Positions 33,706 to 50,909 are shown, counted from the stretch's first letter. The stretch: DNA of 64,000 nt from an uncultured virus (IMG/VR IMGVR_UViG_3300023174_000066) (IMGVR_UViG_3300023174_000066), one strand, 5' to 3'. Notes: generated by a model not told the origin, from the letters alone. Numbers and translations: made by a program.

Positions 33706-33709
33706 GTCA

Positions 33710-34020: not shown

Positions 34021-34028
34021 GTGAAACA

Positions 34029-37620: not shown

Positions 37621-37845
37621 TTAAAAATTTGACAAATGTGCAGCAATTAGGCGTCTAAACGCAGTAAGTTGGGGCTTTTCTACGTAATTTAAGTGCGCGT
37701 AAGACAGCTCGAAAGCGTTTTGAAGCCGCACTAAATCGAGAATAGAAAGTGTTTTGAGATCTAGCTCACCGCGCTCGTAGTCGGTGTAGAAGGAGTCAAT
37801 AAAGTCGATTGACGATTGGATGAAGGAAGGAGTAGATTTAGCCAT
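37621..37845 (-). CDS. Hypothetical protein, 74 aa, leaderless
   Basis: TATACT-N6-ATG. Confidence 0.6.
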   Translation of the reverse strand: MAKSTPSFIQSSIDFIDSFYTDYERGELDLKTLSILDLVRLQNAFELSYAHLNYVEKPQLTAFRRLIAAHLSNF

Positions 37846-38111
37846 ACGTACAGTATACACGGTGGCGCGGGGGGTTTGGGGGGCGTAGCCCCCTCCCGAG
37901 CGTAGCGAGGGCGGCACTGGCCGGTACGCGCGTAGCGCGATCCGGCAGTGCGGGTTTGAGGGTTTACGGTTTTTACGGTTTTACGGTTTTCCGCACGCAC
38001 AATTCCGCTACGCTGCGCGCCCGTGGAGCGAAGCGAAACGGATCGCGCCGCACGGCCGAACGCCGAAAGGCGAAAGCCCGACAACCTTTTGGGTTGTCGG
38101 GCTTTCGAGAC

Positions 38112-38366
38112 TCACCACTGGGGATAAACGCGAGTGGCGAGAGAGTCGGCGCGGTAGGCGAGACGAGAGGCGGTCTTTCCGAAACGGTACAGAATGTTTC
38201 CGAGAAAGACGCGGATTCGAAACTCGGCGTTGACTGGCGGAGCGTAGGGGTAGCCCTCCGTGATGGTCTCAACGATGTCGGCGTAACATCTTCCGCAGAC
38301 TTGCTGATAGTCTCCTTCCGCAAACATTTCCGAACAACGAGAGTGGGTTTCCGTGGACATAGCCAT
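38112..38366 (-). CDS. Hypothetical cassette protein
   Basis: Lies between promoter 38423 and terminator 38070-38103. Confidence 0.65.
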   Translation of the reverse strand: MAMSTETHSRCSEMFAEGDYQQVCGRCYADIVETITEGYPYAPPVNAEFRIRVFLGNILYRFGKTASRLAYRADSLATRVYPQW

Positions 38367-38664
38367 TCCTTTCGGTAGGTGAGTGACTGGCATACATCAA
38401 GTATCGCAAACGCGAGGTTCGTTGTCAACTGAATCGGGCGGGCGGGTTGTTTTTCGAAGTGCGGGGTTTCGCCGTGCTGCCCGTCGGAGCGAAGCGACGC
38501 CGGGCCGCGCGGTTGGGTTTCACGGTTTTGGGTTTTACGGTTTTCCGCACGCACAATTCCGCTACGCTGCGCGCCCGTGGAGCGAAGCGAAACGGATCGC
38601 GCCGCGTGGCCGGAATTGAAATAGGGCTAGCCCGACAACCTTTTGGCTGTCGGGCTAGCGGCGG

Positions 38665-39006
38665 TTACTCGTGGAAGTAACGGCGTTCGTTAGTCGCTTC
38701 CGCTTCGTAGTAGTAATACTCATCTGCTACGCTGGCACACTCTCGGCAGAGAGTGTGGGGCTGTTCCGCGTTCTTGATTTCGCACACTTGGCAGGGGCGC
38801 AGGTGGCGCGTTCCAACAAGGTGTCCAAAAATTGCTGACGCAATTACGACACAAGCAACGACAGAAATAATGTCGAATGTGGTGTCGTAGGCTGGGTAAG
38901 CCGCGATATATCGTTCGGCGGTGTATGCCAGTCCTATCGCGTAACCGTATAGGGCTAGGGCTAGGATTGCGCGATATCTCCGCGAAGTACCGTCATTTCC
39001 AAACAT
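38665..39006 (-). CDS. Two-TM membrane protein with C-terminal CxxC/CxxC
   Basis: AGGAG RBS before ATG 39006; CQVC...CREC. Confidence 0.65.
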   Translation of the reverse strand: MFGNDGTSRRYRAILALALYGYAIGLAYTAERYIAAYPAYDTTFDIISVVACVVIASAIFGHLVGTRHLRPCQVCEIKNAEQPHTLCRECASVADEYYYYEAEATNERRYFHE

Positions 39007-39014
39007 TTTTTCTC

Positions 39015-39095
39015 CTATTTCTTTAGGTAACCAGATTGGATTATTGCCAACAAATACCTTTCGGCACTTGACGGTGTTGGTGTTTCTGTGGACAT
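39015..39095 (-). CDS. 26-aa peptide MSTETPTPSSAERYLLAIIQSGYLKK
   Basis: AGAAAGGAG RBS; its stop overlaps the next RBS. Confidence 0.4.
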   Translation of the reverse strand: MSTETPTPSSAERYLLAIIQSGYLKK

Positions 39096-39341
39096 TTTCC
39101 ACTCCTTTCTTTCATCTCTATCCTCTCAAACGAAACGATTGTTGTCAACTCGCGGCGGGCGGGGGGTTTGTTTTTCGGGGTGCGGGGTTTGGGGGGCGTA
39201 GCCCCCTCCCGAGCGTAGCGAGGGCGGCACTGGCCGGTACGCGCGTAGCGCGATCCGGCAGTGCGGGTTTGAGGGTTTACGGTTTTTACGGTTTTACCCG
39301 CGCGAAAGCCCGACAACCTTTTGGGTTGTCGGGCTGTCGGG

Positions 39342-39842
39342 CTATCCCCAGATAACGGACACTCCGCGAGAGCGCGCATCCTCGCAGACGGTGCGAAGGT
39401 CGGCAAACTTCTGGTCGAAGTATCCCGCGGGGCGTCCGCCTTGGATGATGCGCGGACCGAATGACGGGTGCGAGATATCAACGGCGGGGCGTCCATCGTC
39501 CTCGGGCATCAAGGCGATTACCGTAAGGACTCGTCCGAGCATTTCCTCGGCGGGCAGTGCGCCGACACAGGCATCCGCGAAGTCCTTGTCCTCGGTAAGG
39601 ATGCCGAGCATCTCCAAGAGTTCCGCGGCGTTTCCGTTGGCGAGTTGACACTCGGGCGCGACACCCTCAACGGCTGCTCCGTAAGGGTCACAGTCCACAT
39701 CGCCACATGCGGCAACGAAACGCTGGGAGTGGTGGACTGCCGAAGTGTAGTCGGGGAAACGCATCGGCGTAGTCTTGCCGCAGATACAGGTGACAGAGTG
39801 CGGGCGCATGTGCCAGTCGGCGGGAGAGAATGTTACAGACAT
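39342..39842 (-). CDS. Hypothetical protein, 166 aa
   Basis: ORF track; cassette context. Confidence 0.7.
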   Translation of the reverse strand: MSVTFSPADWHMRPHSVTCICGKTTPMRFPDYTSAVHHSQRFVAACGDVDCDPYGAAVEGVAPECQLANGNAAELLEMLGILTEDKDFADACVGALPAEEMLGRVLTVIALMPEDDGRPAVDISHPSFGPRIIQGGRPAGYFDQKFADLRTVCEDARSRGVSVIWG

Positions 39843-40046
39843 GGTGAGTTCCTTTCAGTTGCTACTAGTGGACTACTCCAGTTTGCCATACGGGACATTC
39901 GTTGTCAACTCGCGGCGGGCGGGGGGTTTGTTTTTATTTGATTTTTGGGTTTGGGGTTCTCCGCGCAGCGGGGTTTTAGGTTTGGGTTTACGGTTTTTCT
40001 GGCGAGCCCGAAGGGCGAGCCCCGCGCTGGGCGGGGCTCACCTCGG

Positions 40047-40223
40047 TCACTCTCCTTCGGCTCGGCGTTCGTTCAGGGCTTCCTGCTGGGCTTCCAAGTC
40101 CTCAAGTCGGCAGTCCAGGCACTGTCCTCGGCTGCCTGTCGGCTCGCCGCAGGTGTAGCACGACTCCGACATTAAGAGTTGGTCAGGCGCGGGTTGGGTG
40201 TAGTTGTCTTCGTAGTCAGCCAT
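40047..40223 (-). CDS. Small Zn-ribbon protein
   Basis: CYTC...CLDC; GAGGAG RBS. Confidence 0.65.
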   Translation of the reverse strand: MADYEDNYTQPAPDQLLMSESCYTCGEPTGSRGQCLDCRLEDLEAQQEALNERRAEGE

Positions 40224-40405
40224 CGTTGGCTCCTCTCGGTTGGGTAACTCAAGTGTCGCACGAATCAAGGCGAGAGTCAAGTCGCGGCGGGCGGGCGCTT
40301 TGTTTTTCGATGTTTGCTTTTCTTCCGCGCAGCGGGGTTTTAGGTTTTACGGTTTTCGCAAATAAAGAAAGCCCGACCCTTTCGGGTCGGGCTTTCGGTG
40401 AGTAG

Positions 40406-40600
40406 TTATTTGCCAAAGTTATCTTCGGGCGGTAGCACTAGCCCTACCTTGATAGCGAGGGCGAGGGCGGCGTGGGCAACATCTGTTCTCATTCGGCGGC
40501 GGTACTCCGTTTCGTCGATTTGCTTGGTTTGGAATGCAAGAGAATGTTCTTCGATATAGAGAGTATGCGCTCGAATGTAGGTGATGGGTTGGATGGGCAT
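40406..40600 (-). CDS. Hypothetical protein, 64 aa
   Basis: ORF track; AAGGA RBS. Confidence 0.6.
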   Translation of the reverse strand: MPIQPITYIRAHTLYIEEHSLAFQTKQIDETEYRRRMRTDVAHAALALAIKVGLVLPPEDNFGK

Positions 40601-40656
40601 TGCTTTCCTTTCGTTAGGTGATTAGACAGTTTCACAACTTGTCTAGGTTGGTAGTT

Positions 40657-40806
40657 CTACTTCTTGTCAAGAAGCCTTTGGATTAGGCGAGTAAGTTCGG
40701 ATAACCGAGCCTCGTTCTCCGCTTTCTGCTGTATGACTAGCGCGCGCGTTTCTTGTAATGCCTTAATTGCGTTGTTTAGCATTTCAACTTCGTCAATTTC
40801 TTCCAT
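40657..40806 (-). CDS. Small coiled-coil protein, 49 aa
   Basis: Manual translation MEEIDEVEMLNNAIKALQETRALVIQQKAENEARLSELTRLIQRLLDKK, after promoter 40860. Confidence 0.55.
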   Translation of the reverse strand: MEEIDEVEMLNNAIKALQETRALVIQQKAENEARLSELTRLIQRLLDKK

Positions 40807-41017
40807 TTTTCCGTTCCTTTCGTTGGGTACAATATCAGTTTACGCGAATGTCGTAATCAAGTCAAGCGAGAGGGCGGGGGGATTTGTTTTTATTTGATTT
40901 TTGGGGCGGAGCCCCTTTCCGCGCAGCGGGGTTTTCAAGGTTTTGGGTTTTACGGTCTTCCGCGCCAGAAATAGGGCTAGCCCTACCCGAGGGGGGGTAG
41001 GGCTAGCAAACGGATAA

Positions 41018-41275
41018 CTAAATGAGGCGAGAGAATTTCTCGAGCATTTCTTGAGCATCCTTGTTGTCGGCACTGGTGCGAACACTTGACGCGAAACTGT
41101 CGGCGGTCATCTCGAGAGCCTGGATGAATTCCCGTAACGCTTCCAAGTCATCCGTCGGCTCGTTGTCCGTGTACAGGATGTGGTCTTTCTTGCGGTACAT
41201 CTCATCCGTGAGACGATTGATAGCCCAATAGGCAATCAGGTTCTGCGCTGCGACAGGCAGTTTGATTTTTGTCAC
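41018..41275 (-). CDS. Hypothetical protein, 85 aa
   Basis: ORF track; cassette context. Confidence 0.65.
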   Translation of the reverse strand: MTKIKLPVAAQNLIAYWAINRLTDEMYRKKDHILYTDNEPTDDLEALREFIQALEMTADSFASSVRTSADNKDAQEMLEKFSRLI

Positions 41276-41482
41276 TTCCGTTCCTTCCGTTTGGTCGGAT
41301 TGTTCCGATACTCAATATTCGCATAGTCGGCAGATATTGTCAAGTGGCGAGGCGGGCGGGGATTTGTTTTTCGATGTTCTGGGGTTGGGGTTCTCCGCGT
41401 AGCGGGGTTTTCAAGGTTTTGGGTTTTACGGTTTTCCGCACGCCAAAAAGCCCCAGCGCGTTAGCGCCGGGGCTTTTGGTGG

Positions 41483-41665
41483 CTACTCCCAGGCTCGGGG
41501 AGTTCCGCGACTCGACTTTAGAGCGCGAGTGTATACACGTTCACGGCGGGTCAGGCGGTGGCGGTCTTTCAAGAGAAACCGATAGTTGATTACCAACATT
41601 GTGCTGGCGACACCTATCAAGAAACTCACGATAAATCCGAGAATGATTAGCGTGTTGTTGTCCAC
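41483..41665 (-). CDS. Single-TM protein, 60 aa
   Basis: GTG start after AAAGGA; TM helix then basic tail. Confidence 0.55.
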   Translation of the reverse strand: MDNNTLIILGFIVSFLIGVASTMLVINYRFLLKDRHRLTRRERVYTRALKSSRGTPRAWE

Positions 41666-41729
41666 GGTATTCCTTTCTTTTTGGTTTTGTTCGCCAGCCC
41701 AACCCTTTCGGGTCGGGCTGGCGTTGTGG

Positions 41730-41858
41730 TTACTCGGTGACGGTGACGGCAATTGCGCCATCGTCATACAGACTTTCCAGTTTTGCCTCGATTTCGATTT
41801 CGTCACAAACGATTGTTGTGATTTCACCGTATCCAAAGTTGGCTTTGAGAACTGCCAT
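41730..41858 (-). CDS. Small protein, 42 aa
   Basis: Manual translation MAVLKANFGYGEITTIVCDEIEIEAKLESLYDDGAIAVTVTE; AAAGGA RBS. Confidence 0.5.
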   Translation of the reverse strand: MAVLKANFGYGEITTIVCDEIEIEAKLESLYDDGAIAVTVTE

Positions 41859-42061
41859 TGTGTTCCTTTCGTTGGGTACGATATCAGTTTGCCATCTATC
41901 CGCACATAAGTCAAGTGGCGAGAGGGGGGCGTTTGTTTTTCGATGTTTGCTTTTGGGGTTCTCCGCGTAGCGGGGTTTTCAAGGTTTTAGGTTTTACGGT
42001 CTTCCGCGCCAGAAATAGGGACTGCCCCAACCCTTTCGGGTCGGGGCAGTCGGTGAGTGGA

Positions 42062-42412
42062 TTAGGACGGCGAGCCAGCGTAGAGCAAGTCCGCGACCAA
42101 TTCCGCAACCTGCTTGTCAGTCAGTCCGAGCGTCTCGCCCTCGTCGTCCGCGCCACCCGTGATGATGGCGTTTCCGACGATAATGTCGATACCCGAACCG
42201 AATGCCGAAGTGAACAATTTAGTTGCGTAGTTGTTCACGGGGAGTCCGTCCATCTTGCCTTCCTCGTTCACCCAGAGCGTCAGACCGCTTGGAAGCGTGA
42301 CCGCTTCAATCATTCCGCCGACCGCACGAGAGAGCGTCGCGTAAGACACAAACTCTTCCGTGTCTTCTTCAACTTGGATTGTGTTGTTGGTCTTGAGTAC
42401 CAGAGCCTTCAT
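42062..42412 (-). CDS. DUF3846-like protein
   Basis: L...VGG.IE.V......VNEEGK..GLP.N..AT...D.IVG. Confidence 0.75.
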   Translation of the reverse strand: MKALVLKTNNTIQVEEDTEEFVSYATLSRAVGGMIEAVTLPSGLTLWVNEEGKMDGLPVNNYATKLFTSAFGSGIDIIVGNAIITGGADDEGETLGLTDKQVAELVADLLYAGSPS

Positions 42413-42758
42413 TTCCGTTCCTTTCGTTTTATCGGGTTGTTCCGATATCTCAATACTGCCATAAGACAGGCATTGAGTCAAGTGAGAGGGGCGGGGGGAT
42501 TTGTTTTTCGATGTTTGCTTTTGGGTTTCACCGCGTAGCGGCAGGTTTCCGCCGAGCTGAGTATCTCTTCGATGCCTTGCGAGAAGGATTCTCCGCGAAG
42601 CGCACCCGTAGGGGCGTAGCCCCGAAGGGCACCGCATAGGTTCGAGCGAAGCGAGATCCGATGCGGGGGGTTTTCAAGGTTTTGGGGTTTATGGTTTTTA
42701 CGGTTTTTACGATTTTACACGCGAGAAATCCCCGACCCTTTCGGGTCGGGGCGGTGGC

Positions 42759-43220
42759 TCAAACTTCTGCCACTTCCTCGGTGAGTACCGTGTTCTGCCA
42801 GATTCCAAGATTGGTTTCCAAACGGTCACCAAAGATACGAACCCAGTCGGCAAGGTCGATTTCCTCGTCGGTCACAAACTCCATCAGCAAATCTCGGTGA
42901 AGTTCGACTGGTCGGGCGTATCCGAGTCCGTTGCTCGACCAAACTGGAATTGGAACAATTCGGCTGTCGGCATCTGACATCCAACCGACTCCTTCTGTTC
43001 CGATGATTGCGACTCGGGGCTTTCCCCAACAGTCCTTGTCCTTGATTTCGGCAAAGACCAACGGCTCGACTTCGCAACGCTCAATTCCGTCAAAGTGCGG
43101 GTAAGTGAGTCGCATGATTTTGAGGATGTGGTCAGTCAGACGCTTCGAATCAACGACTCGAGCGTGAACTCCTTTTTGGCGTTGAGCGTATCGGTGGTGC
43201 GTTTTGTCTACTTCGGTCAC
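42759..43220 (-). CDS. Hypothetical protein, 153 aa
   Basis: GTG start after GGAG; cassette context. Confidence 0.65.
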   Translation of the reverse strand: MTEVDKTHHRYAQRQKGVHARVVDSKRLTDHILKIMRLTYPHFDGIERCEVEPLVFAEIKDKDCWGKPRVAIIGTEGVGWMSDADSRIVPIPVWSSNGLGYARPVELHRDLLMEFVTDEEIDLADWVRIFGDRLETNLGIWQNTVLTEEVAEV

Positions 43221-43454
43221 GATTTCTCCGTTTCGTGTTTTGGTCGGGTTGTTCCGACATCTAAATACTCTCATCTTTCGATGAAAGTGTCAAGTGGCAA
43301 GGGGCGGGGGATTTGTTTTTCGATGTTTGGGTTTTCGCCCCTGCCGACCTGAGCGCAGCGAAGATCGGCCGGGGGCGGGGTTCACGGTTTTGGGTTTTAC
43401 GGTTTTCCACAAACGCCAAATACCCAGACCACTTGGGTCTGGGTATTTGGGTTG

Positions 43455-43589
43455 TCACTCTCCGTTTTCGCACCAACCACAGAGATAATCTCCGCCATAA
43501 GGATTGCCGATGAATGTTCCGTGCTTACAATAGAAATCTGGAACGTTCAGGTCATCCTCGTCAAAGAGTGGGTCGCTACTGGTGGTCAC
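43455..43589 (-). CDS. Small Cys/His protein, 44 aa
   Basis: Manual translation ...FYCKHGTFIGNPYGGDYLCGWCENGE; GTGA coupling. Confidence 0.5.
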   Translation of the reverse strand: MTTSSDPLFDEDDLNVPDFYCKHGTFIGNPYGGDYLCGWCENGE

Positions 43590-43789
43590 TTTACCGTCAC
43601 CCACTCCATTGCGGTACGCAACAAGTGGTCGTAATCGCCTGCGGTGCTTTCGGTGAAGTAAGCGTCAATCTCTGACTTCTCCACTTTTGCTCGCTTGAGT
43701 GCTGTCTGGACTGTGGCGAGAATGGTAAAGGCGTTTCCGTCATTTCCAGTCAGTTGGACAACCACATCTGGGTATCTGGGTTCAGACAT
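43586..43789 (-). CDS. Conserved phage small protein (LTGxDGNAF...GDYDHLL)
   Basis: Recognised motif; GGAG RBS. Confidence 0.7.
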   Translation of the reverse strand: MSEPRYPDVVVQLTGNDGNAFTILATVQTALKRAKVEKSEIDAYFTESTAGDYDHLLRTAMEWVTVK

Positions 43790-44046
43790 TATTTCTCCGT
43801 TTCTTTGTCTGTCGGATTGTTCCGATACCTCAATACTCGCATAGTTCACATTTTTTGTCAAGTGGTGGGGCGGGGGGTTTGTTTTTCTTGGTTGCTTTGG
43901 GGGTTGGGGGCGCAGCCCCTCACCGCGAAGCGGTCTCCGCGTTGCTCCGGTGCGCGAAGCGCAACCGGGCCACGCGGGTTTTACGGTTTTGGTTTTACGG
44001 TTTTCCGCACGAGAAACTGCCCTAACCTTTCGGCTAGGGCAGTCAG

Positions 44047-44283
44047 TTACTCGTCAAAGTTGAATAACTTGTTCCAACATTTGGGGCAATATCCAGAGAT
44101 AAAGCGTTCTCGAATATCTTTGGATAAGTCGGGGAATATTTCGTGGGCAAACATTCCGTTGTGGTAAGCAAATAGGTTTGCGCCAGTAACCGTAATCACG
44201 GTGTTGTCCGAACAGTCTGGACAGTCAAGTGAAGTGGCGAGATATGTGTCCTCGTCAACCTTTTCGACTTTTGCGATTTTCAT
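44047..44283 (-). CDS. Zn-finger protein
   Basis: CPDC...RERFISGYCPKCW. Confidence 0.7.
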   Translation of the reverse strand: MKIAKVEKVDEDTYLATSLDCPDCSDNTVITVTGANLFAYHNGMFAHEIFPDLSKDIRERFISGYCPKCWNKLFNFDE

Positions 44284-44353
44284 CAGTTCTCCGTTTCTAT
44301 CTTTTAGTTGGGTAGACAGTTTCACAACTTGTCTAGGTTGGTAGGGCTTCTAC

Positions 44354-44479
44354 TTATTTCCAGTAATCCGAAAATGCTTGGTCGTAGATTGCTTGGCGTT
44401 CCGATTGGTACTGTTCGTCAGTCATTGAACAGTCACTCGGCATTTCGTGTCCACAACAAGGGAAGTCCTCGCAAGCCAT
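44354..44479 (-). CDS. Small Cys-rich protein, 41 aa (CEDFPCCGH)
   Basis: Manual translation; TAATG coupling. Confidence 0.5.
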   Translation of the reverse strand: MACEDFPCCGHEMPSDCSMTDEQYQSERQAIYDQAFSDYWK

Positions 44480-44613
44480 TACTCGGGCAGTTTCTCGATA
44501 ATCCGCAAGAGTTCTGCGTTCTCGGGCTTGTCGGGGTCGGCAAGGACTTTATCAACCGCATCCATGTTGATAAGGCTGTCCAAGTCCTTCGGGTTGTTCC
44601 AGTCGAACGACAT
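44479..44613 (-). CDS. Small protein, 44 aa
   Basis: Manual translation MSFDWNNPKDLDSLINMDAVDKVLADPDKPENAELLRIIEKLPE; GGAG RBS. Confidence 0.5.
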   Translation of the reverse strand: MSFDWNNPKDLDSLINMDAVDKVLADPDKPENAELLRIIEKLPE

Positions 44614-44859
44614 GATTTCTCCATTTCTTTCGTATCGGATTGTTCCGATATACCAATAGTGCCAGACGGAACATCTATTGTCAACTGGTAGAGGGCGGGG
44701 GATTTGTTTTTCGAAGTGCGCTTTTGAGGGGCGTAGCCCCTCACCGCGCAGCGGTTCGCCCGAGCGTAGCGAGGGGCTTTTGGTTTTAGGGGTTTATGGT
44801 TTTTACGGTTTTACCCGCGGGCGACTGCCCACAACCTTTCGGCTATGGGCAGTCGGCGG

Positions 44860-45273
44860 TTACTCCTCCCGAGTGTCGATTGCTACAACAAACGGTGCGC
44901 CGAGTTCATCGTGCGATGAACGAACGACAGTCAATTCTTTGTCGTCAAGAGTGAAACGAAGTATCCAAGACGAATTGATTGAGAGAGTATCAACCAAGTC
45001 TTTCGCTGAAACGCTGGCGTATCCTGAAACTTTGTTCCAATTCATTGCCTCGCTAGAAACAATAATTCGGCTATCACGGTCGGCGTTGTTACGCGCCAGC
45101 CATTCGTCAAGGACAAACTCATCGAAGACTGCGAGTTCTTCTTCGTAACATTCGTGGCAGTAGTCGCTGGGAATGGGGTCGCCATTCTCATCAACCATCT
45201 CCTCGCCTGTTTCTTCGTCAAACTTCGTACAAACGCAGTCGTTCGTCAGAGTGAATGTCTGTTTCTCGGTCAC
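44860..45273 (-). CDS. Acidic hypothetical protein with CxC/CxxC
   Basis: GTG start after AAGGAG. Confidence 0.65.
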   Translation of the reverse strand: MTEKQTFTLTNDCVCTKFDEETGEEMVDENGDPIPSDYCHECYEEELAVFDEFVLDEWLARNNADRDSRIIVSSEAMNWNKVSGYASVSAKDLVDTLSINSSWILRFTLDDKELTVVRSSHDELGAPFVVAIDTREE

Positions 45274-45542
45274 GGTATTCTCCTTTGTGAGATTGTTGAT
45301 TTGCCTCACACACTAACTCTATAATAAACGGAACATTCAGTCAAGTCAGGGGCGGGGCGGGGATTTGTTTTTCGATGTTTGGGTTTTAGGGGGCGTAGCC
45401 CCCTTCACCCGAAGGGTCTCCGTGCTGTCCGACGCGCGTAGCGCGATCGGCCGCACGGCGGTTTTGATTTTGGTTTTATGGTTTTTACGGTTTTAGACGC
45501 GCCAACGCGCCTACCCTTTCGGATAGGCGCGAGGCGAGAGGA

Positions 45543-45857
45543 CTACGCGGTGCGAATGTAGTCGTAGGGCGTTACGCGGAGAGTTTCGGCGTAAGCGACA
45601 GGAAACTTCTCTTGTAGCATTTTGCCATCAAACGAGGAGTTCTTGCTGGAAACGAGAGAGAAAGCCTTTGTACCGTTCACAGTCGCAACGGTGGCAGTTC
45701 CGAGTGCTTCTCGCAGAATTGCTTCTGCGATAGCCTTGCGTTCTTTCGCCAACTTTTCATCAGCCTTTGCCTGAATGAAGTCGGTGAGTGCCTGACGGAC
45801 TTTCTTGTTTTGAGGTTTGATTTCTACAACCTCGGGGGTTTCGGCGTTGTTAGCCAT
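45543..45857 (-). CDS. Coiled-coil protein, paralog of 51358..51684
   Basis: Shares REALG.ATVATVNG and KFP.AY with the paralog. Confidence 0.75.
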   Translation of the reverse strand: MANNAETPEVVEIKPQNKKVRQALTDFIQAKADEKLAKERKAIAEAILREALGTATVATVNGTKAFSLVSSKNSSFDGKMLQEKFPVAYAETLRVTPYDYIRTA

Positions 45858-46026
45858 TTCTTTCTCCTTTTGTGGATTGTTGATTTGCCCACATAAGAAA
45901 CATTACGCGGTATCCGCACGAATGTCAAGTGGCGAGGGGGGCGCGTTTTGTTTTTATTTGATTTTCTAAATAAGAAATCCCCTCTCCAACTGCCAGCGGT
46001 CTATCCGCTTTGAGTAGAGAGGGGAT

Positions 46027-46094
46027 TGTGGGCTATGAGGTTTCGAACCTCGGACTATCACAGTAGTCCGCGCCTAGTCTTTCGACCTAGCCCT
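46027..46094 (-). ncRNA. tRNA-like RNA (non-canonical, GUG in the anticodon-like loop)
   Basis: GGGCTA/TAGCCC acceptor-like stem, GAGG-TTCGAAA-CCTC T-arm, CGGACTA-CTGTGA-TAGTCCG stem, GTC-GAAA-GAC mini arm. Confidence 0.45.
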
Positions 46095-46105
46095 TGTCGT
46101 GCTAT

Positions 46106-46408
46106 TTAGTTATCTACGGCAGTCAGACTGTCGCAGTCGTCGCAGAAGTGTCCCTTGCTCTCAACTTCCTCGTCACCACACTCCGCGCACATTGGAATGT
46201 CCTCGAAGTATTCAGGAACGAAAAAATCTTTCGCGCCATCGGGGTATGCCTCGGCGCAGTCACCGCACAACCAGAAGTAGGTCAGTTCCTCAACCTTTTT
46301 GGTGTCGGTCACTCCGTATGTCGGGTTTGTTCCGATAAGACTTATCGGGTCACCATCGAACCAAGCGGAACAACCATCGCAGTTTATATCACTCCAAGAT
46401 AATGCCAT
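46106..46408 (-). CDS. Cys-rich acidic protein (four CxxC)
   Basis: ORF track; AAGGAG RBS. Confidence 0.7.
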   Translation of the reverse strand: MALSWSDINCDGCSAWFDGDPISLIGTNPTYGVTDTKKVEELTYFWLCGDCAEAYPDGAKDFFVPEYFEDIPMCAECGDEEVESKGHFCDDCDSLTAVDN

Positions 46409-46726
46409 TTCCGTTCTCCTTTTTGTTGGGTGAGTAGTTGTTTCAACAGACGCACATACTCAGGTGCGGGAAGCCTTTTAGCGAATGGAGAAAACGCACC
46501 TATCCGACTTCCTAGATAGGATTAGGGCGGTAACTGATGACAACGGTTACATATGTAAATCTATCAGACAGCAAGCCGACTTGTCAAATCAAGGGGGTCG
46601 GGGCGTTTGTTTTTCGATGTTTGGGTTTGGGGGTTTCTCCGCGCGAAGCGCGGTCACGGTTTTGGTTTACGGTTTTTACGGGTTTACACGGCAAAGCCCC
46701 ACTCCCGAAAGAGTGGGGCGCAACGG

Positions 46727-47128
46727 TTAGCCGTAAACGACTTCGCCGTAGACCATTTGCTGTATCACACAGTCAGAGGTCATAGCGTCAAAGTCAAACT
46801 CGCTGTTGCCGTAGAACGATTGAGCCATTGACTGGCTGGCGTAAGTATCTTGAGCCAGCAGTTCCGCATAAGCCTTCACCATATCGTGAATACCGACCTC
46901 AACGGTAACTGTCTTGTCCTCGTCTTTTGGGTCAAGAGCCGTGATACGAGCCAAGCCGACTTCTTCCCAAGACGCACCGTTCAGGTATTCGACTTTCTGA
47001 ATGTGGCTACCAAAGAACTCAAAGCCACCACCGAACACCGAAGACCAAAGCCCACCAGCCTCAACCTTGACTGGAATGATTACCAGTTCCGAGTTGCGTG
47101 ACACTCTTGCTTCTGTTTCCTGTTCCAA
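46727..47128 (-). CDS. Hypothetical protein, 133 aa
   Basis: ORF track; ends D.VIQ...YGEVVYG. Confidence 0.7.
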   Translation of the reverse strand: MEQETEARVSRNSELVIIPVKVEAGGLWSSVFGGGFEFFGSHIQKVEYLNGASWEEVGLARITALDPKDEDKTVTVEVGIHDMVKAYAELLAQDTYASQSMAQSFYGNSEFDFDAMTSDCVIQQMVYGEVVYG

Positions 47129-47370
47129 TTTCTTGCCTTTCCGTTTGGGCGTTGTTGCCTTGATATAAATCTATACCCTCGCAGCGGTTCAGTCAAGTGG
47201 AGTGGGTCGGGGCGGTTTGTTTTTGCGAAGCAAAGGGCGAAGCCCTCACCGCGAAGCGGTCACTCGAGGGGCGAAGCCCCGAGGGGTTTTTACGGTTCTA
47301 GGTTTTATGGTTTTTACGGTTTTACAACGCGCGAACGCGCCCCCCTTTCGGAGAGCGCGTTGCGGTTGGT

Positions 47371-47784
47371 TCAGACTTCCTCGACCTCAAGGCTGTCGGT
47401 CTGGTAGCCGTAGGCGAAGTCCATATCGGAGTGCGTGGCTTCGATACTTGCCTCGAAGTGTTCCTCGTAATCGGAAGCATCTTTTCCGAGCGGAATGGTG
47501 AGCGTTCCGCGCCAAGTGGCGGTCACTACGATTTCGACTTCTTGGGTGAGTTCGACACCGAGCGCGTCACAGAGTTCGACAATGAATTCATCTTCACCAT
47601 CAACCTCGCCGTTGGAAATCGCGGTCTTAAGAATGTCGCTTGCCTTCTCAACTTTTTCGCGGTACATCTCCATTCTGCTGACTGCGAACTTACGAGATTG
47701 CTCGGTTTCGATAAGCCGTTCCTTGACATTTTTCAGAACATCAGTTGCTTCTGTGAGCGTTTCGCTCATTTCGTTGTTGTCCAT
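47371..47784 (-). CDS. Hypothetical acidic protein, 137 aa
   Basis: Cassette context; GGAG RBS. Confidence 0.65.
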   Translation of the reverse strand: MDNNEMSETLTEATDVLKNVKERLIETEQSRKFAVSRMEMYREKVEKASDILKTAISNGEVDGEDEFIVELCDALGVELTQEVEIVVTATWRGTLTIPLGKDASDYEEHFEASIEATHSDMDFAYGYQTDSLEVEEV

Positions 47785-47936
47785 TTTGGTTTGTTTCTCC
47801 GTTTCTGTCGGATTGTTCCGACACTCAATAGTCCCACGAATGACCGTCAATGTCAAGTCAAGGTGGGGGGCGATTTGTTTTTCTTTGATTGTTTTTGGGT
47901 TGAGCAGTTTTAGACTTACTCAGGTCTGGGAGAAAT

Positions 47937-48287
47937 CTACTTCTCGTTTTTGAGGTTGTTGATTAGGTCAGCAAACGCGCTGTCGGTTTCTGCTTTCTCG
48001 TTTACCTCGTACCGTTCTAGGATTTTGGTCAGTAAACCACCTAGTTCGTCTTTGACATTTATGGTCGAAGCAATGAGTGCTTCACGCCCCATACGCTTTA
48101 CCCTGCCGTCTGCTTCTGTGTCGAAGTTTACATCAGGGTCAAACGCGAGGTGGATACCCATAGCCAGCGAACCAGCCATAACAAAGAGCGCAAAGATTTC
48201 GCGGTCAGTCAAAGCCATCTTGCGAAGTTCGTCTTTGTAGTCAAGGTCATTGAGAGGGTTGTATTCCTCGTCACCTGTTTTTGGCAT
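47937..48287 (-). CDS. Hypothetical protein, 116 aa
   Basis: ORF track. Confidence 0.65.
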   Translation of the reverse strand: MPKTGDEEYNPLNDLDYKDELRKMALTDREIFALFVMAGSLAMGIHLAFDPDVNFDTEADGRVKRMGREALIASTINVKDELGGLLTKILERYEVNEKAETDSAFADLINNLKNEK

Positions 48288-48298
48288 TTCCGTACCCC

Positions 48299-48463
48299 CT
48301 AGTAGTTCTCTGCTACGAAATCGGACAGTTCTTTGAGGTTCGCACCGCTACTAATCAAAGCCAGCAGTTCCTCGTTTTCTGACAGTAGTTCGACAGAAAC
48401 GAAGTGAAGCCCTGCGAGGATTGAGAGTGCGCCAACCGCACCCCCGAAATAATCTTTAGCCAT
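48299..48463 (-). CDS. Hypothetical protein, 54 aa
   Basis: AGGAG RBS. Confidence 0.55.
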   Translation of the reverse strand: MAKDYFGGAVGALSILAGLHFVSVELLSENEELLALISSGANLKELSDFVAENY

Positions 48464-48651
48464 TTTTTCTCCTACCGAGGATTGTTGTTGCCCCCGATAA
48501 TATAAGTAAATCATCTATGACGGTTCTTGTCAAGCGAGAGGGCGAGGGGATTTGTTTTTTATTTGAGGGGTTTCACCGCGTAGCGGTTAGGTTTTTACGG
48601 TTTTCCACAAACGCCGAAACCCCCGACCTAAGTCGGGGGCTGGCTGAGTGA

Positions 48652-48975
48652 CTACTCGAGTGCTAGGTAGTAGTCCTTGACAAACTGGGGCAGGTTGTTC
48701 TCACGGACATAATTCATTCCGTCAGGTGTGAGATTGACCGACAGCCATTGACCGCAATCGCAAGCCCACGGTGTGTCGCTTTCACCTTCACCGTAAATGT
48801 CGCAGTAGGCGTAAGAATACCCCTTGTTGTTGTAGTCGCTTGCTGAATAAGGATTTTTGAATTCCAAATCATAGTCGGTGGCGTATTGACGAGCGCATTT
48901 TTCGCAAGCGTAGGTGACATAACTATCGTCACCAATTACCCACGGTGTTTCCAAGATTTCTGCTTCCATTTCCAT
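48652..48975 (-). CDS. Hypothetical Cys-containing protein
   Basis: AAGGA RBS; CEKC...CDCG. Confidence 0.6.
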   Translation of the reverse strand: MEMEAEILETPWVIGDDSYVTYACEKCARQYATDYDLEFKNPYSASDYNNKGYSYAYCDIYGEGESDTPWACDCGQWLSVNLTPDGMNYVRENNLPQFVKDYYLALE

Positions 48976-48976
48976 T

Positions 48977-49225
48977 TCAGTCCTTTTCTGTCCACGGTTC
49001 AGCGGGGTCGTAATCCACTTCTCCGTCAGTTGAGGTTTCGTGAGTGACCTCGCAGTTTTGGCAAACCACTTCCCAGTCACCCCAGTCGTTAGCAACAACG
49101 GTTTGTGCTTCGTTGTGCTTGTTGTCGCAGTCGGGGTTTTCGCAATCGAACTCCGCATACTCGAATTCGGTTTCGTAAATCCCTGACCCCATCATTGACC
49201 CCTCGGGGTAGTTGTAACCAGCCAT
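48977..49225 (-). CDS. Acidic Zn-ribbon protein
   Basis: CENPDC...CQNC. Confidence 0.65.
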   Translation of the reverse strand: MAGYNYPEGSMMGSGIYETEFEYAEFDCENPDCDNKHNEAQTVVANDWGDWEVVCQNCEVTHETSTDGEVDYDPAEPWTEKD

Positions 49226-49516
49226 TCCGTTTCCTTTCGTTAGAAGTTGTATTTATTCTCTCACCGAAAGCAACCAATGTCAAGTCAAGGGGGGTCGGGG
49301 CGGTTTCTTTTTCGAAGAAACGGTTTTCACCGCGAAGCGGTCACCGCGAAGCGGGGGTTTTACGGTTTTGATTTTTACGGTTTTTACGGTTTTCACCCCC
49401 AGAAATGGGGAAAGCCCCTACAAGCCCAACACTTGTAGGGGACTTTCCAGCCGAGGAAAGTAGGGGAAACCTCGGCTACTGGCGGTGGGGAAACGGAAAT
49501 AAACCCACCACCAAGA

Positions 49517-49906
49517 TTAGACTACTTCGGGTTCTTCGACTTTTGACGGAATTACAATCCGAGTTGCGACAGCGGTTGCCCAGAACAAGTCGTGACCGAT
49601 AACCTCGGCTTCGATTTCGACATTAGTTCCAGTCCTATCGTCAGTAGTCCAGTCGCGCACACGCAACCGACCTGAAACAACAATACGGTCACCTTTTTTG
49701 AGCGAGGGAACGCAGTTGATAGCCAGTTGCTTATACGCGCTGACGGTGTACCAGTTGGTCGAACTGTCCACCCATTTTAGAGTTGCCTTGTCGAAACGGC
49801 GTTGTGATGAAGCGAGGCGGAACGAAGTGATAGGAAGCCCCTCGCTGGTTACAATGTGGCGCGGTGTTGTGGCGATAAGCCCTGTGACTGTGATTGTGTC
49901 AGACAC
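49517..49906 (-). CDS. ssb: Single-stranded DNA-binding protein (actinobacterial type, no long acidic tail)
   Basis: ITVTG..AT.P...GLPITSFRLAS..RRFD...W.D..TNWYTV...LA.N...SL.KGDR..V.GRLR.RDW...EIEA..IGHDL.W. Confidence 0.92.
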   Translation of the reverse strand: MSDTITVTGLIATTPRHIVTSEGLPITSFRLASSQRRFDKATLKWVDSSTNWYTVSAYKQLAINCVPSLKKGDRIVVSGRLRVRDWTTDDRTGTNVEIEAEVIGHDLFWATAVATRIVIPSKVEEPEVV

Positions 49907-49939
49907 TATTTCTCCTTTGTTTAGGTTGGTATGATAAAT

Positions 49940-50215
49940 CTATCGGGTGAGAGATACATTGTCAAGTTGGGCGGGGCTGTTTTGTTTTTCGTTGGAAGTT
50001 TGTAATTTCCACCCTGCCAGCGTGACAATGTCATAGACAGTCACACCAAGACCGTCTGCGATACTTTCTAGCACTTCGCTAGAAACTTCGTTGTGACCTC
50101 GTTCGATTTCCGAGAGGTGAGCAATAGAAACATACTTGCTTACATCAACGAGGTTCTTGCGCTTGTCCGTTCGGAGTTCGCGCAAGACCTCGCCAAGAGC
50201 CTCACGATAGAGCAT
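49940..50215 (-). CDS. XRE-family HTH regulator, ClgR-like
   Basis: REALGEVLRELR...L.DVS..VS..HLSEIERG..E.SSEVL.SI..L.V. Confidence 0.8.
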   Translation of the reverse strand: MLYREALGEVLRELRTDKRKNLVDVSKYVSIAHLSEIERGHNEVSSEVLESIADGLGVTVYDIVTLAGWKLQTSNEKQNSPAQLDNVSLTR

Positions 50216-50657: not shown

Positions 50658-50909
50658 TCAAGTTGGAGTTACTAGGTCGGGTTCTATTTCTCCTAGCGAC
50701 TTATACCAAATGTCTTTTTTGGCTACCGTGTACCAAAGACCGCAACACACGCAATCAAAGAACACCATTGGCTCTCCGTCAATCAAGGTCGGATACTCTT
50801 TTTTGATTTGGATAATTTGAGGGTGGTTGTGGTGTTCCAGAGCATAGGCAGACATATTGCTAACTGCCGTCACTTCGGCGTATTCAGTCGCTTGCTGTAT
50901 CTCCGTCAT
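50658..50909 (-). CDS. Hypothetical protein, 83 aa, ends EPDLVTPT
   Basis: ORF track. Confidence 0.55.
   Translation of the reverse strand: MTEIQQATEYAEVTAVSNMSAYALEHHNHPQIIQIKKEYPTLIDGEPMVFFDCVCCGLWYTVAKKDIWYKSLGEIEPDLVTPT

What the first reader, a model, noticed from the sequence alone, without database searches (positions are those of the whole stretch)
37879..49354. Template-strand C-GNA-G triloop DNA hairpins in most cassette spacers
Seen on the plus strand, which is the template for these genes: gggggcGTAgccccc 37879; cgcgcGTAgcgcg 37927 and 45433; ccgcGCAgcgg 39961, 40325, 40919 and 44744; ggggcGGAgcccc 40903; ccgcGTAgcgg 41395, 41963, 42531 and 48576; ggggcGCAgcccc 43907; accgcGAAgcggt 43922, 47248 and 49329; tgcgcGAAgcgca 43951; ccgcgcGAAgcgcgg 46639; agggcGAAgccct 47234. 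Stems co-vary and all four bases occur at N, while G, A and the closing C-G pair are fixed. Established: d(GCGNAGC) forms extraordinarily stable DNA mini-hairpins, and coliphage N4 virion RNA polymerase recognises such template-strand hairpins. On the mRNA strand the loop would read UNC, which is not a known stable RNA motif. Inference: ssDNA or cruciform signals read by a phage protein (virion RNAP, the ZBD-less primase, SSB or a recombinase), upstream of host-type promoters.
Basis: partly seen in the sequence, partly recalled or inferred. Interest (0 to 1): 0.85.

Follow-up and report, generated by a model that had tools for sequence, protein, structure and literature searches.

The report
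Strand-locked GNA mini-hairpins in phage gene linkers
A lake-water phage of actinobacteria carries, ahead of almost every promoter in a row of small genes, short DNA hairpins whose unusually stable G-N-A loop always lies on the same strand; they look like repeat-type linker elements, not the promoters of a special phage RNA polymerase.

Summary
There are 30 perfect C-GNA-G triloop hairpins on the + strand in 37879-49354 and none in the other orientation; shuffles give 0.8. They sit in 15 of 19 linkers between small minus-strand genes.

Each linker has the same order: terminator, A/T tracts, GNA hairpin(s), GC block, sigma-70-type promoter, 5'UTR hairpin. Three related phage lineages have unrelated linker sequences but keep the same hairpin type, on the same strand, 44-70 bp upstream of the -35. 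Other relatives have the same cassette without it.

A related 11-mer, GAGCGNAGCGA, has a tandem G.A mismatch only on the GNA strand. It occurs 51:0 by strand in relatives. It also caps REP-like palindromes in many bacteria, archaea and viruses.

No RNA polymerase was found, so the N4-type reading is not supported. A zinc-finger-less DnaG domain exists in a giant protein, but its link to the hairpins rests on one genome.

Best reading (0.4): REP-like structural insulators within PeSL-like linkers, folding on the template strand. The mechanism is unproven.

The parts
37879..37893 (+). GNA hairpin gggggcGTAgccccc
37927..37939 (+). GNA hairpin cgcgcGTAgcgcg (apex of a longer imperfect hairpin)
39192..39206 (+). 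GNA hairpin gggggcGTAgccccc (duplicate block of 37879)
39240..39252 (+). GNA hairpin cgcgcGTAgcgcg
39961..39971 (+). GNA hairpin ccgcGCAgcgg, followed by GGTTTT
40006..40016 (+). hairpin gcccGAAgggc (no GC core; near terminator)
40325..40335 (+). GNA hairpin ccgcGCAgcgg
40903..40915 (+). GNA hairpin ggggcGGAgcccc
40919..40929 (+). GNA hairpin ccgcGCAgcgg
41395..41405 (+). GNA hairpin ccgcGTAgcgg
41963..41973 (+). GNA hairpin ccgcGTAgcgg
42531..42541 (+). GNA hairpin ccgcGTAgcgg
42611..42623 (+). GNA hairpin ggggcGTAgcccc
43907..43919 (+). GNA hairpin ggggcGCAgcccc
43922..43934 (+). GNA hairpin accgcGAAgcggt
43951..43963 (+). GNA hairpin tgcgcGAAgcgca (apex of longer imperfect hairpin)
44725..44743 (+). 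GNA hairpin tgaggggcGTAgcccctca
44743..44755 (+). GNA hairpin accgcGCAgcggt
45388..45404 (+). GNA hairpin agggggcGTAgccccct
45407..45417 (+). hairpin acccGAAgggt (no GC core)
45433..45445 (+). GNA hairpin cgcgcGTAgcgcg
46639..46653 (+). GNA hairpin ccgcgcGAAgcgcgg
47222..47234 (+). GNA hairpin tttgcGAAgcaaa (first of four in tandem)
47234..47246 (+). GNA hairpin agggcGAAgccct
47248..47260 (+). GNA hairpin accgcGAAgcggt
47268..47280 (+). GNA hairpin ggggcGAAgcccc
48575..48587 (+). GNA hairpin accgcGTAgcggt
49310..49320 (+). hairpin tttcGAAgaaa (no GC core)
49329..49341 (+). GNA hairpin accgcGAAgcggt
49344..49354 (+). GNA hairpin ccgcGAAgcgg
37898..37908 (+). GAGCGTAGCGA cap (GNA triloop, 2 G-C pairs, tandem G.A mismatch; flanked by CCC/GGG)
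38026..38036 (+). GAGCGAAGCGA cap at apex of long imperfect hairpin
38487..38497 (+). GAGCGAAGCGA cap
38580..38590 (+). GAGCGAAGCGA cap
39211..39221 (+). GAGCGTAGCGA cap
42644..42654 (+). GAGCGAAGCGA cap
43351..43361 (+). GAGCGCAGCGA cap, only hairpin element of this linker
44762..44772 (+). GAGCGTAGCGA cap
38424..38454 (-). promoter-upstream block AAAAACAA..GC-rich..TTGAC(-35)
39144..39175 (-). promoter-upstream block to -35
39904..39935 (-). promoter-upstream block to -35
40276..40307 (-). promoter-upstream block to -35
40861..40891 (-). promoter-upstream block to -35
41339..41371 (-). promoter-upstream block to -35
41910..41940 (-). promoter-upstream block to -35
42477..42508 (-). promoter-upstream block to -35
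43289..43320 (-). promoter-upstream block to -35
43857..43886 (-). promoter-upstream block to -35
44680..44711 (-). promoter-upstream block to -35
45340..45372 (-). promoter-upstream block to -35
45924..45955 (-). promoter-upstream block to -35 (linker without hairpin)
46588..46614 (-). promoter-upstream block to -35
47192..47224 (-). promoter-upstream block to -35
47857..47882 (-). promoter-upstream block to -35 (linker without hairpin)
48529..48560 (-). promoter-upstream block to -35
49284..49312 (-). promoter-upstream block to -35
49961..49989 (-). promoter-upstream block to -35 ahead of the SSB gene (no hairpin)

Best explanation
What it is (shown): short palindromes capped by the d(C-GNA-G) mini-hairpin loop, always with GNA on the template (+) strand. 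They form one fixed sub-element of a repeated intergenic linker. Read in the direction of the genes, the linker runs: terminator with a GAAA-type loop, A-tract repeats, one to four GNA hairpins, an A-tract plus GC-rich block, -35 TTGAC, -10, a 5'UTR hairpin, and a Shine-Dalgarno site. The linker separates about 20 small, mostly acidic orphan genes of a freshwater actinophage.

How it works (inferred): they are REP-like cis elements. They act as a structure of the + strand rather than as a sequence read by a dedicated polymerase. The stable hairpin, set in A/T-rich flanks about 90-100 bp upstream of each start site, can extrude under the negative supercoiling behind a strong promoter. If transcription runs backwards into the linker, the same element reads as a hairpin followed by a T-rich tract. 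Either way it insulates one transcription unit from the next.

The near-identical linkers also provide the homology at which whole cassettes are gained and lost, as in the PeSL cassettes of T4-type phages.
For: Enrichment and strand lock:
- 30:0 in the window.
- 22:2 in G001, 31:2 in G002 and 21:1 in G003, within their cassette arrays.

Position:
- The centre of the promoter-proximal hairpin lies 44-70 bp from the -35-like hexamer in 61 of 72 hairpin clusters across five lineages. Medians are 52, 52, 62, 59 and 64.5.
- The linker sequences of those lineages are unrelated.

Loop identity:
- C-GNA-G is the only enriched triloop class. All other triloop types are near-singletons.
- The sense terminators of the same linkers use GAAA or TTCG tetraloops on the gene strand.

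Conservation between the window and G001, which are 83.5% identical overall:
- Stems differ at 10 of 211 positions. Spacers differ at 13.3% and coding sequence at 19.1%.
- Loop A differs at 0 of 22, loop N at 5 of 22 and loop G at 3 of 22.

Folding of the + strand:
- GAGCGNAGCGA occurs 8:0 in the window and 51:0 in 80 related loci.
- G.T next to the stem numbers 19 against 4.

T-rich tract after the stem on the GNA strand, counted as T in 10 nt:
- L013 8.3, L014 8.5, L004 4.5, window 2.3.
- On the gene strand the figures are 0.9-1.8.

REP-like kinship:
- The same cap is found on palindromic repeats in more than 116 viral and more than 122 prokaryote contigs.
- GCGNAGC appears in REP sequences listed in Table 1 of PMC2817692.

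Cassette exchange:
- Synteny breaks between the window and G001 fall in linkers.
- Contigs from other samples join linker to linker. One example is 40322 to 40917, with 19 shared letters.
- The PeSL precedent comes from the abstract of PMC2839356.
Against: - No experiment or transcript data exist, and no RNA run was available.
- Extrusion needs both strands to fold. The tandem G.A class is weak on the opposite strand, which argues for a role when the strands are already apart rather than for a cruciform.
- In the window lineage only 3-4 hairpins pass a simple terminator scan on the + strand. Terminator-like sites as a whole are not enriched there: 29 against 21.6 +/- 4.7.
- Nearest-neighbour DNA energies show no strand difference, -397.6 against -400.7 kcal/mol summed over 16 linkers. 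Those parameters carry no GNA bonus.
- Close relatives run the same cassette design without the hairpin, so it is dispensable for promoter and terminator function.
- L004 tolerates a flipped loop in 4 of 10 linkers.
- Copies within a genome descend from one another, so the counts overstate independent support.
Confidence: 0.4

Rival explanations
1. Selfish or neutral REP-like repeats. In this reading the hairpins spread and are kept perfect by a single-strand mechanism. This could be template switching at very stable hairpins, or mobilisation in trans by a host enzyme. They would have no function for the phage. The strand lock would reflect which strand is exposed or simple common descent.
For: - The copy number per linker varies from 0 to 4, with tandem duplicates.
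- Many relatives lack them while keeping the same cassette.
- The same cap is found in repeat families of many phyla.
- The loop is flipped in L004.
Against: - The position relative to the -35 is fixed across lineages whose linker sequences are unrelated.
- Stems and loop A are more conserved than the surrounding spacer.
- No Y1/RAYT transposase was found in 5 related records, while the control search rang in 10 of 14 genomes. None was seen in the window proteins scanned.
Confidence: 0.18
2. Plain RNA-level intrinsic terminators for antisense (+ strand) transcription. The hairpin plus U-rich tract would stop divergent or spurious transcripts before they enter the upstream gene.
For: - T-runs follow the stem on the GNA strand in L013 and L014 (8.3 and 8.5 T of 10) and in L004 (4.5).
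- Window sites 39959, 40323 and 48575 were called terminator-like on +.
- RNA parameters favour the + strand, -779 against -726 kcal/mol.
Against: - The loop is strictly C-GNA-G. The genuine sense terminators beside them show varied RNA-type tetraloops.
- 25 of 30 window stems are only 4-5 bp.
- Hairpins inside tandem arrays have no T-tract.
- Arrays of the GAGCGNAGCGA cap in L005 have no T-tracts.
- Few + strand promoters are predicted, 4 of 15 sites.
Confidence: 0.15
3. Loading or priming signals on single-stranded + strand DNA for phage replication or ejection proteins. Candidates are the zinc-finger-less DnaG-type primase at the end of the 3387-aa polyvalent protein, its helicases, or the Prim-Pol/D5 primase-helicase. 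The parallels are G4 oric and RSF1010 ssiA.
For: - A DnaG core plus Toprim domain without a zinc-binding domain lies at residues 3037-3362.
- A PIF1 helicase lies in the 4507-aa protein.
- An SSB gene heads the cassette array.
- Mini-hairpins at primase sites are documented (passages of PMC13037366).
- The DnaG and PIF1 domains are absent from 5 hairpin-less relatives, 3 of them at least 90% complete. The positive control rang.
Against: - The co-occurrence rests on one hairpin-bearing genome. The other hairpin-bearing contigs stop at the terminase gene.
- A priming role does not explain the fixed distance to every promoter.
- The cap is common in organisms without such proteins.
Confidence: 0.12
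4. Template-strand hairpin promoters of an unrecognised, virion-delivered RNA polymerase, working like N4 vRNAP.
For: - The loop and closing-pair rule and the strand match the N4 promoters.
- The direction fits the genes.
- About 4700 residues of the two giant proteins next to the portal gene have no recognised domain.
Against: - No RNAP appeared by Pfam, PHROGs or PDB sequence search.
- There is no DxDGD motif and no T7-type A, B or C motifs in order.
- PF00940 was found in 0 of 5 records, including a complete relative. That search's control genomes also gave no hit, so it carries no weight.
- There is none in 37 kb more of G001.
- 17 of 30 loops have T or C at the centre.
- Each linker has 0-4 hairpins and its own sigma-70-type promoter.
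Confidence: 0.07
5. Chi-like, orientation-dependent signals read as single-stranded sequence by a host helicase-nuclease, protecting the entering DNA.
For: - The strand lock is absolute.
- AGCGG and GAAGCGG lie inside many hairpins. The resemblance to the Chi sequences of Bacillus and Staphylococcus is recalled from memory and was not tested.
Against: - The shared feature is the fold (varied stems such as GGGGC, CGCGC, TTTGC), not a fixed word.
- Chi needs no palindrome.
- The position is tied to promoters.
Confidence: 0.03

Closest known systems
Coliphage N4 virion RNA polymerase early promoters (P1-P3)
   Same: Both are small hairpins on the template strand with a 3-nt G-N-A loop closed by C-G (N4: GCGGAGC, with loops GGA or GAA). 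In N4 they are stable enough to extrude from supercoiled DNA, and the complementary hairpin is the weaker one (passages of PMC4496689 and PMC13037366).
   Different: N4 has three such promoters, with the loop centre at -11 of the start site, read by a 3500-aa T7-like virion RNAP. Here there are 30 hairpins, 0-4 per linker, about 50-65 bp upstream of the -35 of ordinary promoters. The loop centre is T or C in 17 of 30. No RNAP was detected.
Primase recognition hairpins of ssDNA replicons (phage G4 oric hairpin I; RSF1010 ssiA with CCGAAGG)
   Same: Both are mini-hairpin sequences on a single strand close to where a primase starts, and SSB binds such hairpins poorly. This phage encodes an SSB, a DnaG-type core without a zinc finger, and a relative encodes a Prim-Pol.
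   Different: Those signals sit at one or two origin sites of single-stranded replicons. Here they recur ahead of every promoter of a double-stranded phage, and no priming data exist.
REP/BIME extragenic palindromes of bacteria
   Same: Both are abundant intergenic imperfect palindromes, strand-specific when read as single strands. REP sequences of Citrobacter, Enterobacter, Salmonella, Klebsiella and Coxiella listed in Table 1 of PMC2817692 contain GCGNAGC. The GAGCGNAGCGA cap tops repeat palindromes in many phyla.
   Different: There is no GT(A/G)G head, no RAYT gene and no alternating BIME arrangement. The elements are located in a phage, at a fixed distance from promoters.
PeSL regulatory cassettes of T4-type phages
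   Same: In both, small orphan genes are each bracketed by a strong sigma-70-like promoter and a stem-loop terminator, and recombination between these repeated linkers shuffles genes (abstract of PMC2839356). Here cassette content differs between close relatives with breaks in the linkers.
   Different: This is an unrelated phage group (a siphovirus of actinobacteria) with unrelated sequence. PeSLs as described have no extra strand-locked GNA hairpin between terminator and promoter.
Intrinsic (rho-independent) terminators
   Same: Both are G+C-rich hairpins followed by a T-rich tract. This holds on the + strand, and clearly so in lineages L013 and L014.
   Different: Stems are often only 4-5 bp and the loop is invariant C-GNA-G. 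The direction is antisense to all genes, and many copies lack a T-tract.

Membership tests
N4-type vRNAP hairpin promoter | Template-strand hairpin with 5-7 bp stem and 3-nt loop GGA/GAA closed by C-G | tested here: inconclusive
   The strand, C-G closure, G1 and A3 are met in 30 of 30. Stems are 4-8 bp, with 10 of only 4 bp. The loop centre is A or G in 13 and T or C in 17.
N4-type vRNAP hairpin promoter | A virion-delivered single-subunit RNA polymerase encoded by the phage | tested here: not met
   No RNAP was found in window proteins by Pfam, PHROGs or PDB sequence search. No motifs were found. PF00940 was found in 0 of 5 records, but that search's control genomes also gave no hit. G001's extra 37 kb has none. 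Undetectably diverged enzymes in the giant proteins are not excluded.
N4-type vRNAP hairpin promoter | Transcription starts about 11 nt downstream of the loop centre; needs gyrase and SSB | not testable with these tools
   No RNA run holds the stretch.
Primase ssi / G4-type origin hairpin | Cognate primase that starts at or beside the hairpin on ssDNA | not testable with these tools
   A DnaG core without a zinc finger is present. It is absent from 5 hairpin-less relatives. There is no biochemical test.
Primase ssi / G4-type origin hairpin | Located at a replication origin | tested here: not met
   The hairpins are spread over 15 of 19 linkers, each tied to a promoter. No origin was identified.
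REP/BIME | Many copies of an extragenic imperfect palindrome | tested here: met
   There are 30 perfect copies plus 8 imperfect caps. All but one GCGNAGC match in the range (38237) lie between genes.
REP/BIME | Conserved GT(A/G)G head and associated RAYT transposase | tested here: not met
   No conserved head beside the stems. PF01797 was found in 0 of 5 related records, with the control ringing in 10 of 14 genomes. None was seen in the window proteins scanned.
PeSL-like regulatory cassette | Repeated unit of strong sigma-70-like promoter plus stem-loop terminator between small orphan genes | tested here: met
   There are 19 near-identical promoter-upstream blocks. Promoter-like sites number 15 against 6.6 +/- 2.3 in shuffles. 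Terminator hairpins have GAAA loops. The genes are mostly without family. Promoter activity itself was not tested.
PeSL-like regulatory cassette | Recombination between units shuffles genes | tested here: inconclusive
   Synteny breaks with G001 fall at linkers. Linker-to-linker joints appear in contigs of other samples, but joints in repeats of metagenome contigs can be assembly errors.
Intrinsic terminator (antisense direction) | Stable hairpin immediately followed by a U-tract | tested here: inconclusive
   Met in L013 and L014 (8.3-8.5 T of 10). Weak in the window (2.3), where 3-4 sites pass the scan.

The most novel reading that the evidence does not exclude
The template-strand mini-hairpins could be start or loading signals for proteins that the phage ejects with its DNA. 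The 3387-aa polyvalent protein carries an exonuclease, a UvrD-like helicase, ArdC and a DnaG core without its zinc finger. The 4507-aa protein carries a PIF1 helicase. In this reading the entering early region is opened to single strands, and synthesis begins at a hairpin ahead of every gene. That would be a phage counterpart of the N4 virion polymerase or of the single-strand leading-region strategy of conjugative plasmids. The SSB gene is the first cassette.
Probability: 0.1. Interest if true: 0.9.

Novelty: new variant of a known kind. Interest (0 to 1): 0.5.

Why it matters
The d(GCGNAGC) mini-hairpin is a chemical curiosity with very few documented biological uses: N4 promoters and a few primase sites. 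Here it is a conserved, strand-locked, position-fixed part of a regulatory linker. It is kept across phage lineages whose linker sequences have otherwise diverged completely. This offers dozens of natural variants for testing what a DNA-specific hairpin does next to a promoter.

The side finding may matter more. A 13-nt cap, C-GA-GC-GNA-GC-GA-G (GNA triloop plus tandem G.A), tops repeat palindromes in many bacteria, archaea and viruses. This suggests a general, under-described building block of REP-like elements.

For phage genomics, the linkers explain how blocks of orphan early genes are exchanged in a widespread group of lake actinophages.

Tried and rejected
- Megablast of 8 kb against named phages gave no match.
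- An exact search for the window's promoter module in IMG/VR gave 0 stretches.
- No whole genome is held for the window.
- ARAGORN found no tRNA.
- Rfam gave 5 matches at E 0.23-0.84, all far below gathering scores.
- No RNA holder was listed among the sequencing runs.
- The earlier-findings index was empty.
- The protein atlas gave no usable hit for residues 1-1700 and 1701-3400 of the 4507-aa protein.
- Searching IMG/VR for relatives of the primase domain gave only one locus, 99% identical, on a 20-kb contig. Searching for the L013-type hairpin gave 7 stretches on 4 contigs. Co-occurrence of hairpins and primase therefore could not be tested beyond one genome.
- I looked for a hairpin-binding protein shared by the hairpin-bearing lineages but missing from three hairpin-less complete genomes. 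The shared real genes (46727-47128, 47371-47784, 47937-48287, 50884-51273, 61708-62262) are small acidic proteins with pI 4.1-4.9 and no family. This gave no candidate.
- DNA nearest-neighbour folding gave no strand difference.
- In unrelated viral contigs the orientation of the cap relative to flanking ORFs was mixed, 17 same against 15 opposite by a crude ORF call. The strand rule is therefore lineage-specific.
- Literature searches for the 11-mer, for GCGAAGC with intergenic hairpins, for triloop hairpins in phage intergenic regions, and for REP with GNA loops found no description of these elements. The library lacks most subscription journals, and no supplements were consulted.
- Structure prediction, complex prediction and the large homology searches were not used. 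About 4700 unassigned residues could not be covered with two folds, and a negative result would not exclude a diverged polymerase.

Full report
**Observation.** A scan for perfect hairpins with 3-nt loops (stem of at least 4) finds 33 of the form C-GNA-G on the + strand of the 64-kb window. Thirty of them lie in 37879-49354. The opposite orientation occurs 4 times in the window and never in that range.

Five hundred dinucleotide-preserving shuffles of the range give a mean of 0.83 (sd 0.89, maximum 4). With the composition of the spacers alone the mean is 0.34. That script counted 29 observed hairpins because the last one ends on the final base.

The core word GCGNAGC has 58 matches in the window against 29.9 +/- 5.2 expected. 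In the range, 37 are on + and 5 on -. Loops are GAA 12, GTA 12, GCA 5 and GGA 1, and 27 of 30 have the GC-GNA-GC core. The copies are not independent, since some linkers are duplicated blocks.

**Setting.** All genes here are on the minus strand, so + is the template strand. Nineteen near-identical promoter-upstream blocks (AAAAACAAA, a C-rich run, then TTGAC) mark a repeated linker. Read in the direction of the genes, the linker runs as follows:
- a stop codon and a terminator hairpin, often with a GAAA loop;
- (AAAACCGT)n-type A-tracts;
- one to four hairpins;
- an A-tract and a GC block;
- the -35 and -10;
- in at least 6 linkers, a conserved 5'UTR hairpin TCGGAACAATCCGA;
- a Shine-Dalgarno site and the start codon.

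Sigma-70-like sites number 15 against 6.6 +/- 2.3 in shuffles. Of 24 cassette proteins scanned, only an SSB and a DUF3846 passed a Pfam cut-off, and a few more matched PHROGs of mostly unknown function. Those examined are acidic. Hairpins occur in 15 of 19 linkers, or 17 of 19 with the imperfect class.

**The organism.** The window encodes a large terminase, a portal and two giant proteins:
- The 3387-aa protein has an RNase T-like exonuclease, UvrD-like helicase pieces, ArdC plus a zincin peptidase, and a DnaG core with Toprim but no zinc-binding domain.
- The 4507-aa protein has a PIF1 helicase.

The terminase has 451 relatives in IMG/VR. The closest named phage is Actinomycetia phage DSL-LC01, at 79% identity, a siphovirus assembled from lake water. 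Runs holding the stretch are lake and freshwater metagenomes from 13 studies.

**Relatives.** Among the best 80 terminase loci, only a few carry the hairpins.
- G001 is 83.5% identical to the window and has 22 hairpins with GNA on the template strand against 2.
- Two further lineages (L013/G002, 31:2; L014/G003, 21:1) and L004 have linkers of quite different, A-rich sequence. They keep a C-GNA-G hairpin with other stems (TTTGCGGC, TTGCTGC, TGCGC, GGCGC) between terminator and promoter.
- The centre of the promoter-proximal hairpin lies 44-70 bp from the -35-like hexamer in 61 of 72 clusters, with medians of 52 to 64.5.
- L004 is the exception in orientation. Six linkers have TNC and four have an identical flipped copy, ggcggcGAAgccgcc, at the same place.
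- Other relatives (L009, L015, L002) have the same cassette design without the hairpin.
- Three complete hairpin-less genomes are at background, 1.2-2.5 per 10 kb with both orientations.

**Which strand folds.**
- A second class, GAGCGNAGCGA, forms a hairpin with two G-C pairs under the loop, then a tandem G.A/A.G mismatch in a C-GA-G context, and then further Watson-Crick pairs that differ between copies (CCC/GGG in the window, GC/GC in L005). On the other strand the mismatches are pyrimidine-pyrimidine. The word occurs 8:0 in the window and 51:0 in the 80 loci, always on the template strand.
- Next to perfect stems, G.T pairs are on the GNA strand 19 times and on the other strand 4 times.
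- C-GNA-G is the only enriched triloop class. The sense terminators of the same linkers use GAAA or TTCG tetraloops on the gene strand.
- Between the window and G001, stems differ at 10 of 211 positions. Spacers differ at 13.3% and coding sequence at 19.1%. Loop A differs at 0 of 22, loop N at 5 of 22 and loop G at 3 of 22.
- That the d(GNA) loop is very stable and depends on the closing pair I take from the abstract of PMC3201870 and from passages of PMC13037366. The stability of tandem sheared G.A pairs in this context is recalled from memory.

**A wider family.** A pattern of two caps within 30 bases finds more than 116 stretches in viral contigs and more than 122 in genomes of many bacterial and archaeal phyla. 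I estimate well under one such stretch by chance.

In these the cap tops longer palindromes whose outer stems differ, including repeat families such as gtcatcccGAGCGCAGCGAgggat. REP sequences of five species in Table 1 of PMC2817692 contain GCGNAGC. A repeat-derived primer of Mycobacterium intracellulare contains the 11-mer. In unrelated viral contigs the orientation relative to neighbouring ORFs is mixed. The phage hairpins are therefore one case of a widespread, REP-like kind of element.

The N4 facts hold. Its promoters are template-strand hairpins with GGA or GAA loops, a sheared G:A pair and the loop centre at -11. They are extruded by supercoiling and spared by SSB.

No polymerase was found here:
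- Pfam, PHROGs and PDB-sequence searches of both giant proteins show none.
- There is no DxDGD and no ordered T7-type motif set.
- PF00940 is absent from five records, including complete DSL-LC01. That search's control genomes also gave no hit, so it carries no weight.
- 37 kb more of G001 holds ribonucleotide reductase, ThyX, dUTPase, a resolvase, collagen-like proteins and a Prim-Pol/D5 primase-helicase, but no RNAP.
- About 4700 residues of the giants remain unassigned, so a diverged enzyme is not excluded.

The primase idea has one new hint. The DnaG and PIF1 domains are missing from five hairpin-less relatives, and a positive control rang. The other hairpin-bearing contigs end at the terminase gene, so the link rests on one genome.

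**Other readings.**
- Terminator reading. On the + strand the hairpins are followed by T-rich sequence. This is strong in L013 and L014 (8.3 and 8.5 T of 10), moderate in L004 (4.5) and weak in the window (2.3). Three or four window sites pass a terminator scan on +. The result looks like an antisense terminator, but short stems, tandem copies without T-tracts and the invariant loop argue that RNA termination is not the whole story.
- Cassette exchange. Cassette content differs between the window and G001, with breaks in the linkers. Contigs from other samples join linker to linker (weak evidence). This parallels the PeSL cassettes of T4-type phages (abstract of PMC2839356).
- Mobilising or binding proteins. 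No RAYT gene and no candidate binding protein was found.

**Verdict.** The hairpins are real, highly enriched, strand-locked and conserved in kind and position. I file them as REP-like GNA-capped palindromes built into PeSL-like linkers. They most likely act as a structure of the template strand that insulates neighbouring transcription units, with confidence 0.4. The rivals are neutral or selfish repeats, RNA terminators, priming signals and N4-like promoters. They are not members of the N4 promoter family on present evidence.

Noticed in passing
window 32480-32745, 32780-33300 and 33700-34030: These are large tandem arrays of 7-9-mers, (GGCGCGT)n and (GACCCGCGT / GCCCGCGT)n, at 67.5% G+C. 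They lie between the large terminase gene and a GIY-YIG endonuclease plus a small-terminase-like HTH gene. Two small promoter-bearing genes sit inside them. The heptamer GCGCGTG equals the Chi word I recall for Lactococcus. The arrays could be a pac site, an origin or protein-binding iterons.
   Followed up: partly
IMG/VR loci L089-L168; genome loci L205 onward: The 13-nt cap C-GA-GC-GNA-GC-GA-G tops repeat palindromes in more than 116 viral and more than 122 bacterial and archaeal contigs of many phyla. I found no description of it in four literature searches.
   Followed up: partly
L005 9440-11300 (also L006-L008): In these relatives a non-coding stretch of about 1.9 kb after the terminase gene holds at least 15 copies of the cap, spaced 21-27 bp. 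It also holds many C-TTC-G hairpins with varied A/T-rich stems, and five copies of TATATAAAACTGGAGTTGAAC. It may be an origin, a packaging site or a set of non-coding RNAs.
   Followed up: no
window 1928-15451 (-) and 16147-26310 (-): These are two giant ORFs just after the portal gene. One is 4507 aa with a PIF1 helicase at about residues 3420-3900. The other is 3387 aa with an RNase T-like exonuclease, UvrD-like pieces, ArdC plus a zincin peptidase, and a DnaG core with Toprim but no zinc finger. These enzymatic domains are absent from five related genomes. The 3289-aa giant of DSL-LC01 has no Pfam domain.
   Followed up: partly
window 46030-46100 (-): A stretch of about 64 nt has a 6-bp acceptor-like stem and a GGTTCGAAACC T-arm-like end. 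ARAGORN does not call it. It may be a degenerate tRNA-like element in the hairpin-less linker.
   Followed up: no
window 37845-37870: The first cassette gene (37621-37845) has a TATACT -10-like hexamer only about 6 nt before its ATG and no Shine-Dalgarno site. It is probably a leaderless mRNA, as is common in actinobacteria.
   Followed up: no
window 38424-49312, + strand: The template strand just upstream of each -35 is made of G-runs (GGGCGGGGGG, GGGTTTGGGG) followed by GGTTTTACGG repeats. Four or more G-runs within about 50 nt give G-quadruplex potential on the same strand as the hairpins. The GC skew is +0.11 to +0.12 over 38-42 kb.
   Followed up: no
window 40322/40917, 41435/41694, 39977/43985: Contigs from other lake samples join these pairs of linker positions and skip whole cassettes. 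One joint is seen in three runs. This may be natural gain and loss of cassettes, or mis-joins at repeats.
   Followed up: partly
window 49517-50215 (-): An HTH_3-type regulator (49940-50215) and an SSB (49517-49906) head the cassette array. The SSB promoter block lies inside the end of the HTH gene and has no hairpin.
   Followed up: no
relatives L009, L015, L002, L013, L014: A short word, ACACGCC, recurs just upstream of the A-rich tract or the -35 in the linkers of several lineages. It is a possible regulator site. Short tandem repeats such as (CCAGGTT)n and (CCAGGAG)n fill the same linker zone in hairpin-less relatives.
   Followed up: no
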